A stretch of 64,000 bases of DNA from Escherichia coli (GCF_050920415.1 NZ_CP169309.1); one strand, 5' to 3'. Counted from the stretch's first letter, positions 1,881 to 62,200 are shown. Numbers and translations are program-made. The notes: a model not told the origin generated them from the sequence alone.

Positions 1881-3512
1881 TTAATACTCGTCCCGTCCTT
1901 CATCTTCATCCGGCTGTTCCAGCACACTGTAAGCCACCGAACAAAACAGCGAGTTCAGACGCTGCATATCTCCCAGTAAGCCTAAATGAAGCGAACTGGT
2001 TTCAATGCTCTGCACGTTTTGCTGATGCAGGCGATCGACGTGGGCGTGGGAATAGCGGCGATTAAGAATGCGAAAACGATGTTTGCTGCGGCGCAAACGA
2101 CGGGCGCTGGTAACATCGCCAGAGAAGAAAACCGACATTGCCAGTTTTAAATTACTGAGCAATTGCTCATAGAGCGCATCCAGTTCCTTCAAGCCATCAA
2201 GCGAAAATGCTCGCCTTGCAGCCAGCGATTTGTCGGCAATTTCACTCCCCATGCGCTCGACGATATCGGAGGCCTGTTCAAGGTTGAGCGACATTTCGAT
2301 GATCTCCGCCCAGCGGCGCGACTCTTCTTCTGCCAGTTCCTCTTTTGGCATTCGCGCCAGATACAGCTTAATGGCGGTATAGAGAACATTGATATCATCT
2401 GCCAACTTACGCAGCTCTTTCTCCTGCCGTGGCTCGCCGTGCATCACTTTATTCAACCCTTCCATCATCTGTTCCATGGCGTCGCCAATGCGCAGGGTTT
2501 CGCGGGCAGCGTTCGCCAGAGCAAGCGTGGGCGTATCTAGCGCGCTGACATCCAGATGTTTAGGCCGTAGCTGGGTATCCAGTTCCGGTTCATCGCGAAT
2601 AATCGTTTTGCAAAACCGTGCCATCGGGTCAACAAATGGCAGCATGACCAGGCAGCGTACAAGGTTGTAGAAGACGTGGAAATAGATCACCAGTTCCGCT
2701 TTTGGCAATGACAACTTCCCCATTGTCTCTGCCAGCAAATGAACAAACGGCAGGATAATCAGGCTACCCACCAGCTTAAACAGCAGACTACCCAGCGCGA
2801 CACGGCGGGCTGCGGCATTGGCGGCACTGTTGTTGAGCATCGCCAGCAGGCCGGAACCGAGGTTAGCACCAATCACCAGACAGAGCGCCACCGGGAAGGA
2901 GATAATGCCTGCGGCGGTCAGAGTCGCGGTCAGCAGTACAGCAGCAAGGCTGGAGTAGCTGATAATGGCGAACATCGCGCCAATCAGCGCATCCAGCAGA
3001 ATATCGCCGGTTAGCGAGGCAAAGATCACCTGAACGCCGTTTGCCTGGGTGATCGGCGTTACGGCCTGCACAATCAATTCCAGCGCCAGTAAAATCAGCC
3101 CAAGACCAATACCGACACGGCCTAGTTGCCCGGCGCGTGACTGTTTGCGGCCGAGGAAAAAAATCACGCCGATAAAAATAAGTAACGGTGACAGCCAGGA
3201 TAAGTCGAAGGTGAGAATACGCGCCATTAGCGCCGTCCCGACATCTGCACCCAGCACAATCACCAGCGCAGGCGCGAGAGCAACCAGATCCTGGGCGACA
3301 AACGAGGTCACCAGCATGGTGGTGGCATTACTGCTCTGCACCAGTGCTGTAACGCCGATCCCCGCGCAAAAGGCAAGCGGCTTCTTTTCGACGCTTCGGC
3401 TAAGAACAGTACGCAAACGCGCGCCGAAGACGCGCATTACGCCGGTTCGAACAATATGAGTCCCCCAGACCAGCAGGGCGACGGCAGAAAGCAGGTGAAG
3501 CAGCGTTAACAC
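1881..3512 (-). CDS. yjbB: Na+/phosphate cotransporter family membrane protein
   Basis: 543-aa ORF with hydrophobic N-terminal half and charged C-terminal domain; position between pepE and metH as in E. coli. Confidence 0.88.
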   Translation of the reverse strand: MLTLLHLLSAVALLVWGTHIVRTGVMRVFGARLRTVLSRSVEKKPLAFCAGIGVTALVQSSNATTMLVTSFVAQDLVALAPALVIVLGADVGTALMARILTFDLSWLSPLLIFIGVIFFLGRKQSRAGQLGRVGIGLGLILLALELIVQAVTPITQANGVQVIFASLTGDILLDALIGAMFAIISYSSLAAVLLTATLTAAGIISFPVALCLVIGANLGSGLLAMLNNSAANAAARRVALGSLLFKLVGSLIILPFVHLLAETMGKLSLPKAELVIYFHVFYNLVRCLVMLPFVDPMARFCKTIIRDEPELDTQLRPKHLDVSALDTPTLALANAARETLRIGDAMEQMMEGLNKVMHGEPRQEKELRKLADDINVLYTAIKLYLARMPKEELAEEESRRWAEIIEMSLNLEQASDIVERMGSEIADKSLAARRAFSLDGLKELDALYEQLLSNLKLAMSVFFSGDVTSARRLRRSKHRFRILNRRYSHAHVDRLHQQNVQSIETSSLHLGLLGDMQRLNSLFCSVAYSVLEQPDEDEGRDEY

Positions 3513-3661
3513 GAGTTCAGGTTCTCCTTATCGTTATATGTTCCTGAAGCAATTGAATGACCAAAGGACCGGAAACACGCTGACTGGCATCTTTACTGTG
3601 CCTTTTGACCTTCGTTTTTCCGGCTAAGATTATTCCAGCCTGATTCCAGTATAAGTGTTTC

Positions 3662-3699
3662 ATATTAATAAAGAGACAGGGCACTCATTGAGCGCCCTG
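3662..3699 (-). terminator. Intrinsic terminator downstream of metH
   Basis: Minus-strand hairpin cagggcgctcaatgagtgccctg followed by a U-rich run, about 30 nt after the metH stop. Confidence 0.6.
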
Positions 3700-10194: not shown

Positions 10195-10390
10195 AGGAGC
10201 AGTGAATTGCCGGATAAGACGCGCAAATCGTCGCATCAGGCGTTGATTGCCGGATGCGGCGTGAACGTCTTATCCAGCCTACGGTCAGCAACGGTTGTAG
10301 GCCTAATAAGACGCGCAAGCGTCGCATCAGGCATCGTGCACCGATTGCCGGATGCGGCGTGAACGCGTTATCCGGCCTACAATCAGCAAC
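10195..10390. repeat. Cluster of REP elements (BIME) in the aceA-aceK intergenic region
   Basis: Several alternating copies of gccggatgcggcgtgaacgc / ttatccggcctac and gcctgatgcgacg motifs. Confidence 0.8.
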
Positions 10391-15658: not shown

Positions 15659-15778
15659 ATGCCTGGCAGTTCCCTACTCTCGCATGGGGAGACCCCACAC
15701 TACCATCGGCGCTACGGCGTTTCACTTCTGAGTTCGGCATGGGGTCAGGTGGGACCACCGCGCTAAGGCCGCCAGGCA
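15659..15778 (-). rRNA. rrfE: 5S ribosomal RNA (rrnE operon)
   Basis: 120 nt matching the E. coli 5S sequence (TGCCTGGCGGCC...GGGAACTGCCAGGCAT) on the minus strand. Confidence 0.95.
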
Positions 15779-15871
15779 AATTCTGTTTCATCAGACCGCT
15801 TCTGCGTTCTGATTTAATCTGTATCAGGCTGAAAATCTTCTCTCAATCCGCCAAAACATCTTCGGCGTTGT

Positions 15872-18774
<2,903 letters not shown>

Positions 18775-18968
18775 TCACAACCCGAAAATGTTTCTTTCGA
18801 TTCATCATCGTGTTGCGAAAATTTGAGAGACTCACGAACAACTTTCGTTGTTCAGTGTTTCAATTTTCAGCTTGATCCAGATTTTTAAAGAGCAAATATC
18901 TTAAACATGACTCGTAAGTCATCTTTAACGATATCAAGGTCGGCGACTTTCACTCACAAACCAGCAAG

Positions 18969-19044
18969 TGGCGTCCCCTAGGGGATTCGAACCCCTGTTA
19001 CCGCCGTGAAAGGGCGGTGTCCTGGGCCTCTAGACGAAGGGGAC
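18969..19044 (-). tRNA. gltV: tRNA-Glu (UUC) in the rrnE spacer
   Basis: 76 nt: reverse complement reads GTCCCCTTCGTCTAGAGGCCCAGGACACCGCCCTTTCACGGCGGTAACAGGGGTTCGAATCCCCTAGGGGACGCCA. Confidence 0.95.
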
Positions 19045-19215
19045 ACGAAAATTGCTTATCACGCGCTGCGTGATATTTTCGTGTAGGGTGAGCTTTCATT
19101 AACAGAAAGCGAACGGCCTTATTCTCTTCAGCCTCACTCCCAACGCGTAAACGCCTTGCTATTCACTTTTCATCAGACAATCTGTGTGAGCACTGCAAAG
19201 AACAGTTCTTTAAGG

Positions 19216-20756
<1,541 letters not shown>

Positions 20757-32725: not shown

Positions 32726-32752
32726 ACGCCCCGTTTGCGGGGCTAATTTCTT
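32726..32752 (+). terminator. Intrinsic terminator downstream of rsd
   Basis: Stem gccccg-tttg-cggggc followed by taatttctt. Confidence 0.6.
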
Positions 32753-32754
32753 GT

Positions 32755-32915
32755 CGGAGTGCCTTAACTGGCTGAGACCGTTTATTCGGGATCCGCGGAA
32801 CCTGATCAGGCTAATACCTGCGAAGGGAACAAGAGTTAATCTGCTATCGCATCGCCTTTGCGGCGATCGTCTCTTGCTTCATCCGTCGTCTGACAAGCCA
32901 CGTCCTTAACTTTTT
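32755..32915 (+). promoter_or_regulatory. TPP riboswitch (THI element) in the thiC leader
   Basis: Conserved THI-box signatures: ggctgagaccg...cgggatccgcggaacctgatcaggctaatacctgcgaagggaac; sits directly upstream of thiC. Confidence 0.8.
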
Positions 32916-36389: not shown

Positions 36390-37160
36390 ATGTTACGTAT
36401 TGCGGGCAAAACGTTTGATTCACATCTGTTTACCGGCACCGGGAAATTCGCCTCTTCACAATTGATGGTGGAGGCGATCCGCGCTTCCGGCAGCCAACTG
36501 GTGACGCTGGCGATGAAACGTGTCGACTTGCGCCAACACAACGATGCTATCCTCGATCCACTTATCGCGGCGGGTGTGACACTACTGCCAAATACTTCTG
36601 GGGCGAAAACTGCGGAAGAAGCCATTTTCGCCGCTCATCTGGCACGTGAAGCGTTAGGCACAAACTGGCTAAAATTAGAGATTCACCCTGACGCCCGCTG
36701 GCTGTTGCCCGATCCCATCGAAACCCTGAAAGCCGCCGAAATGTTGGTGCAACAGGGATTTGTCGTGCTGCCTTACTGCGGTGCCGATCCAGTGTTGTGC
36801 AAACGTCTGGAGGAAGTGGGCTGTGCAGCAGTAATGCCGCTCGGCGCACCAATTGGCTCTAATCAGGGACTGGAAACCCGCGCCATGCTGGAGATTATTA
36901 TCCAGCAAGCCACGGTTCCGGTGGTCGTTGATGCTGGCATTGGCGTTCCCAGCCATGCCGCGCAGGCGCTTGAAATGGGAGCCGATGCGGTGTTAGTGAA
37001 TACGGCGATTGCCGTCGCGGACGATCCCGTCAACATGGCGAAGGCATTTCGTCTGGCGGTAGACGCCGGCCTGCTGGCACGTCAGTCCGGGCCGGGCAGT
37101 CGCAGTCATTTTGCTCATGCCACTAGCCCGCTGACCGGATTTCTGGAGGCATCGGCATGA
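36390..37160 (+). CDS. thiG: Thiazole synthase ThiG
   Basis: Start placed at [20 protein letters not shown] (256 aa), immediately after the thiS stop. Confidence 0.93.
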
Positions 37161-38290
37161 AAACCTTCAGCGATCGCTGGCGACAACTGGACTGGGACGA
37201 CATCCGCCTGCGTATCAACAGCAAAACGGCTGCTGACGTAGAGCGGGCGCTCAATGCCTCGCAACTCACTCGCGACGATATGATGGCATTGCTATCACCT
37301 GCCGCCAGTGAATACCTGGAACCACTGGCTCAACGGGCGCAGCGTCTGACCCGTCAGCGATTTGGCAACGTCATCAGCTTCTACGTCCCGCTTTATCTCT
37401 CTAATCTTTGCGCTAACGACTGCACTTACTGCGGATTTTCCATGAGCAATCGCATCAAGCGTAAAACGCTGGATGAAGCGGATATCGCCAGGGAAAGCGC
37501 CGCTATCCGGGAGATGGGCTTTGAACATCTATTGCTGGTCACTGGTGAACATCAGACGAAAGTGGGGATGGATTACTTTCGTCGTCATCTCCCTGTCCTG
37601 CGTGAACAGTTCTCTTCACTACAGATGGAAGTACAGCCACTGGCGGAAGCGGAATACGCCGAGTTAAAGCAACTTGGTCTGGATGGGGTGATGGTTTATC
37701 AGGAGACATATCACGAGGCGACATACGCCCACCATCATCTGAAAGGGAAAAAACAGGACTTCTTCTGGCGGCTGGAAACGCCGGATCGGCTGGGCCGTGC
37801 GGGGATAGATAAGATAGGCCTCGGCGCGCTAATCGGCCTTTCCGACAGCTGGCGCGTTGACTGCTATATGGTTGCCGAACATTTGCTATGGCTGCAACAA
37901 CATTACTGGCAAAGCCGTTACTCTGTCTCCTTCCCGCGCCTGCGCCCGTGTACTGGCGGGATTGAGCCAGCGTCGATTATGGATGAACGCCAGTTAGTGC
38001 AAACTATCTGCGCCTTCCGCCTACTTGCGCCGGAGATTGAACTGTCACTCTCCACGCGGGAATCACCGTGGTTTCGCGATCGCGTTATTCCGCTGGCGAT
38101 CAATAACGTCAGCGCCTTCTCGAAAACGCAACCAGGTGGTTATGCCGACAATCATCCCGAGCTGGAACAGTTCTCACCGCACGACGATCGCAGACCAGAA
38201 GCGGTGGCCGCCGCGTTAACCGCTCAGGGTTTGCAGCCGGTGTGGAAAGACTGGGACAGCTATCTGGGACGCGCCTCGCAAAGGACATGA
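37157..38290 (+). CDS. thiH: 2-iminoacetate synthase ThiH (radical SAM)
   Basis: 377-aa ORF with [10 protein letters not shown] radical-SAM motif; overlaps the thiG stop by 4 bp. Confidence 0.94.
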
Positions 38291-38336
38291 GACAAAATGT
38301 AAGAACGTAAATTTATTCCGAGCAGCTACGGAAGAT

Positions 38337-38374
38337 GAAAAACGCAAGGTTGTTGAAAGCGTTGCGTTTTTTTA
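38337..38374 (+). terminator. Putative terminator of the thiCEFSGH operon
   Basis: Hairpin aaacgcaa...ttgcgtt followed by eight U residues, about 50 nt after the thiH stop. Confidence 0.45.
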
Positions 38375-38544
38375 TGTTAGTACCGTCAGCAGGAATGTTG
38401 TCCAGGGCGAAAAGCTTCTTCCTCGTTTCGCCCTGCCTTTCTTAAAAATTCCGTAATGCAAAGTCTGAAGCCATCGCCTGTTGAGCAATGAAAGAGATCT
38501 GATTGTAAGAGAGTAAATACTCAACTATCATAGAGACGAAAATA

Positions 38545-38706
38545 AGAACACATGTTCTCATCTTCCAGGATGCAGCAGACTGAAGAAATTCAGACATCCC
38601 GCAACCTGCGATTATCGCAAGGTCAAGGCAAAGTCCGGTAATGGCGTTCTGAATACCAGAGATAATTCTCTGGCGAAACCCACCTTAAGGTGGGTTTTGT
38701 TATTTT
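38545..38706 (+). ncRNA. Candidate small RNA 3' region downstream of thiH (possibly SroH-like)
   Basis: Two consecutive plus-strand hairpins (ccagagataattctctgg; cccaccttaaggtggg) ending in uuuuguuauuuug. I recall an sRNA annotated between thiH and yjaZ in K-12; the 5' end given here is a guess. Confidence 0.3.
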
Positions 38707-39239
38707 GATGGCTGAGGAAGCTGCTTATTTCTCAATAAGTTGTAGGCAATGGTGAAAAATTTCACTGATTTACCTTTCTGTTTTTCAGAAATGGGATAAG
38801 CGCTAGTTACATGCAAACGAAGTTTTTTCTTTTCCCTGAAAGCCCTGAACGCAACAAAGTAAAATGCCTTGTCTCCTCCGTTTAAATCCACTTCAATCAC
38901 GGCATAGCTACCATACCCAGCATGAATAACGTTGCTTTCTGGCAGCGCCAAAATGGTTCTTTTTAAGTGTATGCGCGCTAAGTTATAACGGTGCTGGCAG
39001 AAGGGACGAGATTCTTTAGGCGCGTGGTACATTAACGATTGTTTTTCTTCGTTAGTCTGATGTTCATAATCTTTTGTGAAGCAGTGAAGAGAGTAGGTAA
39101 CCCAGAAGCGATACTCTAAAGGCTCTTTGCCCTCATGATGCTGAACGTAGACAGCCTGATGAGCATCAAGAAATGATAAATCACGAATATCACCATCCGG
39201 ATGTCCAAAAGGTCGCCACTTCTCCACTTCCTGTTTCAT
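38700..39239 (-). CDS. yjaZ: Heat-shock protein YjaZ (HtrC)
   Basis: 179-aa ORF; conserved position between rpoC and thiH. Confidence 0.85.
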   Translation of the reverse strand: MKQEVEKWRPFGHPDGDIRDLSFLDAHQAVYVQHHEGKEPLEYRFWVTYSLHCFTKDYEHQTNEEKQSLMYHAPKESRPFCQHRYNLARIHLKRTILALPESNVIHAGYGSYAVIEVDLNGGDKAFYFVAFRAFREKKKLRLHVTSAYPISEKQKGKSVKFFTIAYNLLRNKQLPQPSK

Positions 39240-39401
39240 TATCGTTCCTTAAGAAAGTCACACAGGAATAGTATCGAATTCTTGCCGAGCTTGACTCAAT
39301 TAGTTCAGTCAGTTTCAGGATATTAGTCATCTCTACATTGATTATGAGTATCCAGAAATTCATTAAATATTCTGACAAATGCTCTTTCCCTAAACTACCC
39401 C

Positions 39402-39426
39402 CATAAAAAAACCCGCCGAAGCGGGT
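39402..39426 (-). terminator. rpoC (rplKAJL-rpoBC) terminator
   Basis: Minus-strand stem cccgcttcggcggg followed by UUUUUUU, 25 nt after the rpoC stop. Confidence 0.8.
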
Positions 39427-39451
39427 TTTTACGTTATTTGCGGATTAACGA

Positions 39452-48024: not shown

Positions 48025-48060
48025 AGCGCAAAAAGGCTGGTGACTAAAAAGTCACCAGCC
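48025..48060 (-). terminator. rplL-rpoB intercistronic attenuator
   Basis: Minus-strand perfect 10-bp stem ggctggtgac-uuuuua-gucaccagcc followed by UUUUUGCGC; further hairpins at 48065-48097. Confidence 0.75.
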
Positions 48061-48099
48061 ATCAGCCTGATTTCTCAGGCTGCAACCGGAAGGGTTGGC

Positions 48100-57103: not shown

Positions 57104-57223
57104 ATGCCTGGCAGTTCCCTACTCTCGCATGGGGAGACCCCACACTACCATCGGCGCTACGGCGTTTCACTTCTGAGTTCGGCATGGGGTCAGGTGGGAC
57201 CACCGCGCTAAGGCCGCCAGGCA
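57104..57223 (-). rRNA. rrfB: 5S ribosomal RNA (rrnB operon)
   Basis: 120 nt, same sequence as the rrnE 5S copy. Confidence 0.95.
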
Positions 57224-57316
57224 AATTCTGTTTCATCAGACCGCTTCTGCGTTCTGATTTAATCTGTATCAGGCTGAAAATCTTCTCTCAATCCGCCAAA
57301 ACATCTTCGGCGTTGT

Positions 57317-60218
<2,902 letters not shown>

Positions 60219-60412
60219 TCACAACCCGAAAATGTTTCTTTCGATTCATCATCGTGTTGCGAAAATTTGAGAGACTCACGAACAACTTTCGTTGTTCAGT
60301 GTTTCAATTTTCAGCTTGATCCAGATTTTTAAAGAGCAAATATCTTAAACATGACTCGTAAGTCATCTTTAACGATATCAAGGTCGGCGACTTTCACTCA
60401 CAAACCAGCAAG

Positions 60413-60488
60413 TGGCGTCCCCTAGGGGATTCGAACCCCTGTTACCGCCGTGAAAGGGCGGTGTCCTGGGCCTCTAGACGAAGGGGAC
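60413..60488 (-). tRNA. gltT: tRNA-Glu (UUC) in the rrnB spacer
   Basis: 76 nt, same sequence as gltV. Confidence 0.95.
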
Positions 60489-60658
60489 ACGAAAATTGCT
60501 TATCACGCGCTGCGTGATATTTTCGTGTAGGGTGAGCTTTCATTAACAGAAAGCGAACGGCCTTATTCTCTTCAGCCTCACTCCCAACGCGTAAACGCCT
60601 TGCTATTCACTTTTCATCGACAATCTGTGTGAGCACTGCAAAGAACAGTTCTTTAAGG

Positions 60659-62200
<1,542 letters not shown>

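What the first reader, a model, noticed from the sequence alone, without database searches (positions are those of the whole stretch)
38545..38706. Two-hairpin, terminator-ended structure between thiH and yjaZ may be a small RNA
The 409-bp thiH-yjaZ spacer has a likely thi-operon terminator at about 38337-38374 and then, about 300 nt further on, two consecutive plus-strand hairpins (ccagagataattctctgg at 38656-38673; cccaccttaaggtggg at 38679-38694) ending in uuuuguuauuuug. The second hairpin overlaps the yjaZ stop on the opposite strand but has no U-run in that orientation, so it reads as the 3' end of a plus-strand transcript. I recall an sRNA (SroH) annotated in this interval in K-12 but cannot confirm its coordinates or strand.
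Basis: partly seen in the sequence, partly recalled or inferred. Interest (0 to 1): 0.3.

Follow-up and report, generated by a model that had tools for sequence, protein, structure and literature searches.

The report
Known sRNA SroH, partnered with yjaZ
The two hairpins are the 3' end of SroH, a small RNA of E. coli known since 2003 with no known function; comparison with other bacteria shows it is an intricately folded RNA that almost always accompanies the neighbouring gene yjaZ, which suggests the two work as a pair.

Summary
Window 38538-38698 (+) is the annotated small RNA gene sroH (K-12 b4691, Rfam RF00372). It scores 201 bits against a threshold of 80, is 161/161 identical to MG1655, lies on the thiH strand, and ends one base from the yjaZ stop codon. 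As posed, the finding is already known.

The follow-up produced a lead I could not find in the searchable literature. SroH is not a stand-alone intergenic sRNA. Its 140-nt core (38566-38705) recurs next to homologues of YjaZ (Pfam PF27200) in enterobacterial plasmids, phage-plasmids, Aeromonas, Pseudomonas, Marinomonas, Methylococcaceae, many cyanobacteria and a Rubrobacter MAG.

- Protein-first search: 33 of 33 close homologues carry the RNA.
- RNA-first metagenome search: 70 of 82 RNA sites have the gene (67 convergent, 3 in tandem). Most of the inspected orphan sites look like decayed modules.
- An eight-helix fold, including a long-range helix and a pseudoknot, is 98.7% paired, with double-sided changes in 23 of 36 pairs.
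- In E. coli the pair is a 947-bp presence/absence cassette, with sroH found in 69% of genomes.

I infer that SroH is the dedicated RNA partner of YjaZ, possibly antitoxin-like. YjaZ's weak RelE/ParE-like fold is only a lead, and the function is untested.

The parts
38503..38531 (+). sroH promoter: -35 TTGTAA (38503-38508), 17-nt spacer, -10 TATCAT (38526-38531; K-12 has TATGAT)
   Evidence: Promoter scan; the -10 ends 6 nt before the annotated 5' end. 39 of 45 homologous loci have a >=9/12 sigma-70 match on the RNA strand upstream of the core.
38538..38698 (+). sroH small RNA gene (161 nt, as annotated in K-12 and modelled by Rfam); transcription probably ends in the U-rich tail up to about 38706
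   Evidence: RF00372 at 201.1 bits, model positions 1-161; 161/161 identical to MG1655 b4691.
38538..38565 (+). Lineage-specific 5' leader with a small hairpin (38545-38549 / 38554-38558); absent from many homologues, whose promoter sits directly before GGAUG
   Evidence: Fold. In 24 of the 39 loci with a good promoter match the -10 ends 7-12 nt before the core; in the other 15 it lies 14-48 nt upstream.
38566..38705 (+). Conserved SroH core shared with all YjaZ-linked homologues
   Evidence: Own covariance model R1: 132.2 bits, the only strong hit in the 64-kb window; 42-sequence alignment A4.
38568..38599 (+). P1 (GGAUG 38568-72 / CAUCC 38595-99) enclosing the near-invariant loop CAGCAGA and hairpin P1a (CUGA 38580-83 / UCAG 38590-93)
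   Evidence: 100% of cells paired. P1 becomes GAGUG/CGCUC and GAAUG/CAUUC in other lineages; all 4 P1a pairs show double-sided changes.
38576..38651 (+). Candidate pseudoknot: CAGA (38576-79) with UCUG (38648-51)
   Evidence: 42/42 sequences paired. It becomes CCGA/UCGG in L048 and CAGG/CCUG in the distant subfamily. Few independent changes, so this is the least secure helix.
38600..38646 (+). Long-range P3 (CGC 38600-02 / GCG 38644-46) enclosing variable hairpin P2 (38604-38623), mini-hairpin P4 (GG 38627-28 / CC 38635-36) and invariant GGUAA
   Evidence: P3 is paired in 42/42 sequences and all 3 of its pairs change on both sides (CG/UA 22:20, GC/AU 35:6).
   Evidence: -11.1 kcal/mol; 6 of 6 pairs show double-sided changes; 97.6% of cells paired.
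38676..38707 (+).
   Evidence: Terminator scan; -20.6 kcal/mol; 6 of 8 pairs show double-sided changes; 100% of cells paired.
38700..39239 (-). yjaZ (formerly htrC; 179 aa; Pfam PF27200, NCBIfam NF007263), convergent partner gene; its TAA stop (38700-38702) lies in the SroH tail
   Evidence: ORF list; NCBIfam 427 bits; PF27200 on all homologues; the stop codon sits at the same alignment columns in 42/42 sequences.
38453..39399 (.). 947-bp sroH-yjaZ cassette, replaced by about 27 bp in the sroH-lacking genome that was aligned (NZ_CP109921.1)
   Evidence: Alignment with NZ_CP109921.1; sroH is present in 3742 of 5426 complete E. coli genomes.
38335..38373 (+). thi operon terminator (not part of SroH; lies outside the cassette)
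   Evidence: Fold -17.3 kcal/mol, z -3.8; conserved in genomes that lack the cassette.

Best explanation
Shown: window 38538-38698 (+) is sroH, an independently transcribed small RNA with its own sigma-70 promoter and an intrinsic terminator. Shown by comparison: the RNA folds into a conserved multi-helix structure (P1, P1a, P2, P3, P4, hp3, the terminator, and probably a pseudoknot) with near-invariant unpaired nucleotides. It is one half of a compact two-gene module whose other half is yjaZ. The module is mobile: it sits on plasmids, phage-plasmids and next to tRNA genes, and in E. coli it is a 947-bp presence/absence cassette. It spans several bacterial phyla. Inferred: SroH works as the dedicated RNA partner of the YjaZ protein. 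The most likely mode is direct binding that regulates or neutralises the protein, as in a type III toxin-antitoxin pair. The fixed 3' overlap in the common convergent layout may add antisense or termination coupling. My sub-confidences: identity as sroH 0.98; functional coupling to yjaZ 0.8; direct RNA-protein binding 0.45; antitoxin-like neutralisation of a toxic YjaZ 0.3.
Confidence: 0.6

Rival explanations
1. SroH is chiefly a cis-antisense regulator of yjaZ, in the manner of a type I system. Convergent transcription makes the SroH 3' end, or all of SroH if yjaZ reads through, complementary to the yjaZ mRNA 3' end. Pairing across the stop codon or RNase III cleavage would then lower YjaZ output.
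For: The yjaZ stop codon lies in the SroH tail at a fixed distance from the terminator stem in 42 of 42 sequences. On the yjaZ strand the hairpin is followed by UUUCGCC, a poor U-tract, so read-through into anti-SroH is plausible. 67 of the 70 partnered metagenomic sites are convergent.
Against: Three loci keep an intact RNA in tandem with the gene on the same strand, where no antisense overlap exists. A cis-antisense RNA needs neither invariant unpaired nucleotides nor a covarying multi-helix fold with a long-range helix. YjaZ is a 179-aa soluble protein, unlike the small hydrophobic type I toxins.
Confidence: 0.2
2. SroH is an ordinary trans-acting base-pairing sRNA with targets elsewhere (for example kbl), and its association with yjaZ is passive co-transfer in a small cassette.
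For: An EMSA shows SroH binding kbl mRNA (PMC6172242). SroH was enriched in an Hfq PAR-CLIP. It accumulates in stationary phase and is listed among CRP-regulated sRNAs. A deletion phenotype in cell-envelope stress is cited.
Against: Host-specific mRNA targets cannot explain near-identical unpaired sequence from E. coli to cyanobacteria and a Rubrobacter MAG, nor linkage to one protein family in two orientations. SroH is not an established Hfq client. Overexpression had no effect in the biofilm and motility screens.
Confidence: 0.12
3. The hairpins are only terminators: a second thi-operon terminator and/or a bidirectional terminator for yjaZ, with no RNA gene of their own.
For: The second hairpin is palindromic and folds on both strands; Rfam's sroH model also hits it weakly on the minus strand.
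Against: A promoter sits at the right distance, and such promoters recur across phyla. The 110 nt upstream of the hairpins are conserved and structured. Published work detects a primary transcript. The thi terminator lies 280 nt upstream and is kept in genomes that lack the cassette.
Confidence: 0.02
4. The region encodes a small protein starting at the AUG within GGAUG (38571; 23 codons in E. coli).
For: An SD-like AAGGA sits next to an AUG that is almost invariant, and in many homologues the AUG lies near the predicted 5' end.
Against: The ORF length ranges from 1 to 36 codons and is 4-5 codons in 12 loci. The AUG lies inside helix P1, and the SD-AUG spacing is zero.
Confidence: 0.03

Closest known systems
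sroH / SroH sRNA (E. coli K-12 b4691; Rfam RF00372)
   Same: It is this gene: same sequence (161/161), same strand, same neighbours, and a full-length Rfam match at 201 bits.
   Different: Nothing differs at the locus. However, Rfam's model annotates only the terminator hairpin as structure, and at its gathering score of 80 bits it misses most distant copies: they score 54-82 bits, and the distant subfamily gives no hit at all. The literature found treats SroH as an orphan sRNA of unknown function.
Type III toxin-antitoxin systems (ToxIN, CptIN, TenpIN)
   Same: A protein gene is genetically locked to a highly expressed non-coding RNA. The modules are small and mobile, on plasmids and phage-related elements. 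The tandem variant (RNA, terminator, then protein gene on one strand) matches the type III layout. Decay is asymmetric, with the RNA outliving the protein gene.
   Different: There are no tandem repeats in the RNA. The usual layout is convergent. YjaZ shows no similarity to ToxN/AbiQ-type toxins and has no PADLOC hit. Toxicity, RNA processing and complex formation are all untested.
Type I toxin-antitoxin pairs with 3'-overlapping antisense RNAs (TxpA/RatA, BsrG/SR4 of Bacillus subtilis; from general knowledge)
   Same: A convergent sRNA overlaps the 3' end of the protein gene, has a strong promoter of its own, and the RNA is unstable.
   Different: The protein has 179 aa and is not a small membrane peptide. 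The RNA has a conserved tertiary-type fold and invariant loops. The linkage survives in a tandem orientation that has no overlap.
RelE/ParE-superfamily type II toxins
Bacterial Ro-Y RNA modules (Rsr with YrlA; from general knowledge)
   Same: A structured non-coding RNA of about 100-150 nt is encoded beside the protein it binds, and the pair has a patchy, horizontally spread distribution across phyla.
   Different: There is no sequence or fold relationship, and no evidence yet that SroH and YjaZ form a particle.

Membership tests
Rfam RF00372 sroH / K-12 sroH (b4691) | Covariance-model score at or above the curated gathering score (80 bits), over the full length | tested here: met
   201.1 bits, model positions 1-161 of 161, at 38538-38698 (+).
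Rfam RF00372 sroH / K-12 sroH (b4691) | Same position and strand as the annotated gene: between thiH and yjaZ, on the thiH strand, abutting the yjaZ stop | tested here: met
   MG1655 annotation; 161/161 identity; ORF map.
Rfam RF00372 sroH / K-12 sroH (b4691) | Expressed as a discrete transcript of about 161 nt | not testable with these tools
   Only literature on K-12 is available: a primary transcript with poly(A) at its 3' end (PMC5389530) and a stationary-phase Northern signal. The promoter and terminator are present in this window.
Type III toxin-antitoxin system | Antitoxin RNA built of tandem direct repeats | tested here: not met
   Tandem Repeats Finder found none in 38291-39451.
Type III toxin-antitoxin system | RNA gene upstream of the toxin gene on the same strand, separated by a terminator | tested here: not met
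   The window and 67 of the 70 partnered metagenomic sites are convergent; only 3 loci have the tandem layout.
Type III toxin-antitoxin system | Toxic endoribonuclease neutralised by direct binding of the RNA | not testable with these tools
   No experiment exists. YjaZ has no ToxN/AbiQ-like or PADLOC match.
Type I toxin-antitoxin system | Small (under about 60 aa) hydrophobic toxin peptide | tested here: not met
   YjaZ has 179 aa with a mixed alpha/beta globular model.
Type I toxin-antitoxin system | Antisense RNA complementary to the toxin mRNA | tested here: inconclusive
   The genes overlap only over the stop codon and tail, and the extent of the yjaZ 3' UTR is unknown. There is no complementarity to the yjaZ 5' region (mean z 0.12). 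The tandem loci have no overlap.
RelE/ParE toxin superfamily (for YjaZ) | RelE/ParE fold | tested here: inconclusive
RelE/ParE toxin superfamily (for YjaZ) | Sequence-profile match to a RelE, ParE, HigB or YoeB family | tested here: not met
   No such Pfam hit for any of 65 members even at E <= 10; no PDB profile hit.
RelE/ParE toxin superfamily (for YjaZ) | Adjacent, co-transcribed protein antitoxin gene | tested here: not met
   The 947-bp cassette holds only sroH and yjaZ; the 2.46-kb plasmids likewise.
Hfq-dependent trans-acting sRNA | Established Hfq binding and validated in-vivo mRNA targets | not testable with these tools
   The literature gives one PAR-CLIP enrichment, flagged there as not an established target, and one in-vitro EMSA with kbl.

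The most novel reading that the evidence does not exclude
SroH and YjaZ form a previously unrecognised, widespread and mobile RNA-protein system. A non-repetitive, pseudoknotted RNA of about 130 nt would bind and neutralise a RelE/ParE-like protein. That would be a new class of RNA-antitoxin (type III-like) module, found from E. coli to cyanobacteria and acting in plasmid or phage maintenance or in stress and phage defence.
Probability: 0.3. Interest if true: 0.8.

Novelty: already known. Interest (0 to 1): 0.45.

Why it matters
As posed, the finding re-discovers an annotated sRNA, which is useful mainly as a check that sequence reading alone can recover real sRNA genes. The follow-up matters more. 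SroH has had no known function since its discovery, and yjaZ (formerly htrC) is an uncharacterised gene whose original functional designation was retracted (PMC11551758). The two are inherited together across phyla, in two orientations, on plasmids, phage-plasmids and islands, and the RNA has a covariation-supported multi-helix fold. This turns two separate unknowns into one testable hypothesis about a dedicated RNA-protein pair. It also shows that the curated Rfam family (terminator-only structure, enterobacterial scope) under-describes the RNA. If the pair proves to be toxin-antitoxin-like, it would add a new architecture to RNA-antitoxin systems, one that is present in the K-12 laboratory strain.

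Tried and rejected
1. Other Rfam families over the RNA (rnk_pseudo 29 bits, Hammerhead_II 22 bits, RsmY, P9) are chance hits. The Pseudomonas, Vibrio and Erwinia copies hit neither rnk_pseudo nor any other family.
2. Small-protein reading of the AUG at 38571: rejected. ORF length ranges from 1 to 36 codons and the AUG lies inside helix P1.
3. The single-sequence MFE helix CAGGAUGC/GCGUUCUG is only 79.5% paired across the alignment, shows no double-sided changes, and has C.A in 18 sequences. The comparative model is preferred.
4. Trans pairing with the yjaZ ribosome-binding region: no conserved complementary motif, and duplex energies no better than shuffles.
5. The complement of UCUGAAUACC recurs at CDS nt ~390, but it coincides with the codons of the conserved FxVFRE motif, synonymous sites vary, and E. 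coli itself misses the cut-off. I judged it a by-product of coding.
6. INPHARED phages: no match to the cassette.
7. YjaZ against the local Pfam copy, PADLOC, PDB sequences and BFVD structures: nothing significant. The afdb50 library was unavailable.
8. Tandem repeats: none.
9. Literature: no paper in the held library links SroH with yjaZ/htrC or with an antitoxin role. The Vogel 2003 discovery paper could not be opened under the id I tried, and Hobbs 2010 was never looked up, so both are known here only through citing papers.

Full report
**1. The observation**

CCAGAGAUAAUUCUCUGG (38656-38673) folds at -11.1 kcal/mol. The second hairpin, whose G+C core is 38679-38694, extends to a 14-pair stem in the terminator scan (38671-38702) at -20.6 kcal/mol. 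It is followed by UUUUGUUAUUUUG. Both hairpins are far more stable than shuffled sequence, with z about -5.8.

On the minus strand the second hairpin still forms (-13.8 kcal/mol) but is followed by UUUCGCC, so it reads as a plus-strand terminator. The spacer is 409 bp: thiH is 37157-38290 (+) and yjaZ is 38700-39239 (-). The thi terminator near 38335-38373 is real.

There are small corrections. The RNA starts at 38538, not 38545.

**2. Identity**

An Rfam scan of the whole window gives a full-length match to RF00372 (sroH) at 38538-38698 (+), scoring 201.1 bits against a gathering score of 80. MG1655 annotates ncRNA sroH (b4691) at 4190327-4190487 on the thiH strand, one base from the yjaZ stop. 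The window runs in the opposite orientation to MG1655 and is 161/161 identical over the gene. The nearby differences are one base in the -10 hexamer (TATCAT here, TATGAT in K-12) and one base downstream of the gene, at 38709.

A sigma-70-like promoter (TTGTAA-17-TATCAT, 38503-38531) ends 6 nt before 38538.

**3. What is published, within the held library**

- SroH is repeatedly called uncharacterised.
- One in-vitro study reports binding to kbl mRNA (PMC6172242).
- The primary transcript is polyadenylated, and it accumulates together with processed forms in a pcnB mutant. A deletion mutant is cited as sensitive to cell-envelope stress (PMC5389530).
- Overexpression had no effect on biofilm or motility (PMC4606813).
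- SroH accumulates in stationary phase and appears in a list of CRP-regulated sRNAs (bioRxiv 10.64898/2025.12.22.696124).
- It is not an established Hfq client.
- It is patchily distributed within E. coli (PMC3318445).
- The original functional designation of yjaZ (htrC) has been retracted (PMC11551758).
- No paper found connects SroH with yjaZ.

**4. A presence/absence cassette in E. coli**

The 161-nt gene is found in 3742 of 5426 complete E. coli genomes, almost always at >=99% identity. In the others, homology to the spacer stops near window position 38452. In a representative genome (NZ_CP109921.1) thiH is followed directly by rpoC. Alignment shows that window 38453-39399 (947 bp: the sroH promoter, sroH, yjaZ and the yjaZ upstream region) is replaced there by about 27 bp. 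The thi and rpoC terminators are kept on either side.

**5. The same pair on mobile elements**

About 100 PLSDB plasmids match the cassette: Serratia 36, Enterobacter 18, Escherichia 16, Klebsiella 14, Citrobacter 8. In most of the best-matching plasmid records homology begins inside sroH, at window ~38562-38567.

The hosts include:
- 2.46-kb and 5.8-kb ColRNAI-type plasmids;
- phage-plasmids, where the pair sits between tail and baseplate genes;
- large plasmids, where it lies beside a tyrosine recombinase.

The phage-plasmid copy scores 111 bits with Rfam and already shows compensatory changes in both 3' hairpins. In one plasmid a relBE pair occupies the yjaZ position next to the same recombinase, and only the last 52 nt of SroH remain.

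**6. Linkage across phyla, starting from the protein**

YjaZ belongs to Pfam PF27200 (precomputed labels) and NCBIfam NF007263. It has no hit in the local Pfam copy or in PADLOC. The superfamily comprises 718 clusters at 50% identity with E <= 0.001, almost all of them stand-alone proteins of about 180 aa.

Homologues in Aeromonas, a Thiolinea MAG and a cyanobacterial MAG all have the RNA on the opposite strand, abutting their stop codon. A scan of one genome per species with a YjaZ alignment returned 56 loci. All 33 evaluable homologues at >=41% identity carry the RNA: 30 by a strict motif search and 3 in diverged or insertion-bearing form. These include Enterobacterales, Aeromonas, Pseudomonas lundensis, Marinomonas, Psychrobacter, Ferrimonas, Methylococcaceae, about 20 cyanobacteria and a Rubrobacter MAG.

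With my covariance model, 18 of 20 distant homologues (26-37% identity; Pseudomonas, Vibrio, and Erwinia, Pantoea and Enterobacter chromosomes, Thermosynechococcus) also give a weaker hit of 14-35 bits in the same place and on the same strand. Rfam recognises none of these. It scores the cyanobacterial and other copies at 54-82 bits, mostly below its threshold.

**7. Linkage, starting from the RNA**

A pattern made only of RNA motifs found 10 viral contigs. Five are true full-architecture copies. Four of those have the gene, and one keeps only what look like its last codons.

A second RNA-only pattern found 101 metagenomic stretches, of which 80 loci were fetched, giving 82 sites:
- 67 have a convergent YjaZ homologue at the expected distance.
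- 3 have an intact RNA (118-119 bits) followed on the same strand by its terminator, a Shine-Dalgarno sequence and a yjaZ-like ORF.
- 9 have no gene despite at least 650 nt of available sequence.
- 2 have no gene, with only 250-649 nt available.
- 1 is not evaluable.

Most of the 11 inspected orphan sites retain at least the start of the gene's 3' end after the terminator, and several keep about 25 nt of it; some of their RNAs are themselves degenerating. Two points follow. First, the linkage does not depend on orientation. Second, decay is asymmetric: among the sampled close homologues the protein never lacks the RNA, but the RNA can outlive the protein gene.

**8. The RNA is a structured RNA on the sroH strand**

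In a 42-sequence alignment I read eight helices and tested them. Overall, 98.7% of 1512 cells form standard pairs, against 85.6% in column shuffles and 32-49% when the partners are slid. 23 of 36 pairs change on both sides, and 0 of 500 shuffles reach any of the observed measures.

| Helix | Window coordinates | Note |
|---|---|---|
| P1 | 38568-72 / 38595-99 | becomes GAGUG/CGCUC and GAAUG/CAUUC elsewhere |
| P1a | 38580-83 / 38590-93 | all 4 pairs change on both sides |
| P3 (long-range) | 38600-02 / 38644-46 | CG/UA 22:20, GC/AU 35:6 |
| P2 | 38604-23 | variable hairpin |
| P4 | 38627-28 / 38635-36 | two-pair mini-hairpin |
| Pseudoknot (candidate) | 38576-79 / 38648-51 | CAGA/UCUG; CCGA/UCGG in L048; CAGG/CCUG in the distant subfamily |

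The competing helix proposed by the single-sequence MFE fold is only 79.5% paired and shows no compensation.

Other tests agree. G.U cells outnumber A.C cells 36 to 3, which fixes the functional strand. 39 of 45 loci have a >=9/12 sigma-70 promoter match on that strand. The AUG-initiated ORF varies from 1 to 36 codons, so the RNA is not coding. The unpaired segments GGUAA, AAUA and CG, and the loop CAGCAGA, are near-invariant from E. coli to cyanobacteria.

Caveats apply. The helices were derived from the same sequences on which they were counted. Many of the sequences are related. The pseudoknot rests on few independent changes.

**9. The protein**

**10. Mechanism**

Shown: sroH is an independent, terminator-ended RNA gene; its fold is conserved; it is linked to yjaZ; the pair is mobile.

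Inferred: the RNA product acts with or on YjaZ. Near-invariant loops, a tertiary-type fold, linkage that survives a change of orientation, and asymmetric decay all favour direct RNA-protein recognition and an antitoxin-like or regulatory role. Type III toxin-antitoxin systems are the closest analogue. The fixed placement of the stop codon in the SroH tail (42/42) suggests additional 3' coupling in the convergent form.

Against a strong toxin-antitoxin reading:
- A K-12 sroH deletion is viable (secondary citation).
- The RNA has no repeats.
- The fold evidence is weak.
- There is no PADLOC hit.
- Nothing functional has been tested.

I found no complementarity between the RNA and the yjaZ 5' region.

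**11. Verdict**

The finding as written is a correct re-identification of a known sRNA, so its novelty is "already known". The interest score of 0.45 reflects the added lead, which is well supported at the level of comparative genomics: SroH and YjaZ form a conserved, mobile RNA-protein gene pair. That lead makes the long-unknown functions of both genes directly testable.

Noticed in passing
window 38453-39399: sroH plus yjaZ form a 947-bp presence/absence cassette between the thi and rpoC terminators. About 31% of complete E. coli genomes lack sroH; in the one such genome that was aligned (NZ_CP109921.1) the cassette is replaced by about 27 unrelated bases.
   Followed up: yes
L004 3973-4699; L008 about 3000-3672: Phage-plasmids of E. 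coli and E. fergusonii (88-92 kb) carry the sroH-yjaZ pair inserted between tail and baseplate genes, like a phage moron. No match was found in the INPHARED phage collection.
   Followed up: partly
L005 3974-4057 (plasmid NZ_CP171639.1): Only the 3' part of SroH (a 52-nt Rfam match covering the two hairpins) survives next to a relE/relB pair and the same kind of tyrosine recombinase that flanks yjaZ in Serratia and Edwardsiella plasmids. A classic toxin-antitoxin pair occupies the yjaZ slot.
   Followed up: partly
L102 950-1077; L139 1502-1628; L150 4691-4817: Tandem variant of the module: intact RNA, then its terminator, a Shine-Dalgarno sequence and a 35-38%-identical yjaZ-like ORF on the same strand. 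This layout recalls type III toxin-antitoxin loci.
   Followed up: partly
L079 about 2925-3062; L107, L109, L157 and others: Orphan copies of the RNA in which the yjaZ gene is deleted. Several of them (L079, L107, L109, L157) keep only the last ~25 nt or fewer of the gene. Neighbouring genes include an HNH endonuclease-like ORF (L085) and, judged by eye only, a PIN/DUF5615-like ORF (L157).
   Followed up: partly
L045 3015-3167: In a Methylococcaceae MAG the P1a hairpin carries an insertion of about 70 nt that contains AGGAGG followed by an ATG-initiated reading frame running back into the RNA core. Its significance is unknown.
   Followed up: no
yjaZ CDS nt ~387-402 in L008, L010, L013, L023, L025, L032-L034, L037-L040, L048: The complement of the invariant SroH segment UCUGAAUACC recurs (with <=2 mismatches) at the codons for the conserved protein motif F-x-V/A-F-R/K-E: 20 of 39 CDS have a hit somewhere, against about 7 expected. 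This is probably a coding coincidence, and E. coli itself misses the cut-off.
   Followed up: partly
window 38403-38435 (+): A second stable hairpin (CAGGGCGAAA...UUUCGCCCUG, -15 kcal/mol, z -3.4) lies between the thi terminator and the cassette boundary and is conserved in genomes that lack the cassette. Its function is unknown. The thi terminator itself has an A-run before it and a U-run after it, so it looks bidirectional.
   Followed up: no
L062, L064, L068 (tRNA at about 2147-2243): In Erwinia, Pantoea and Enterobacter chromosomes the distant yjaZ-like gene and its RNA sit about 260 nt downstream of a tRNA gene, a typical island integration site.
   Followed up: no
window 38529: The only difference from K-12 near the gene is in the -10 hexamer (TATCAT here, TATGAT in MG1655), which could alter sroH promoter strength between strains.
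   Followed up: no
window 32745-32845 (+); 15661-20756 and 57106-62200 (-); 48034-48095 (-); 10300-10377 (-): Other Rfam hits in the window: a TPP riboswitch ahead of the thi operon, two complete rRNA operons with tRNAs, a P26 match, and naRNA4. All are as expected for this E. coli region.
   Followed up: no
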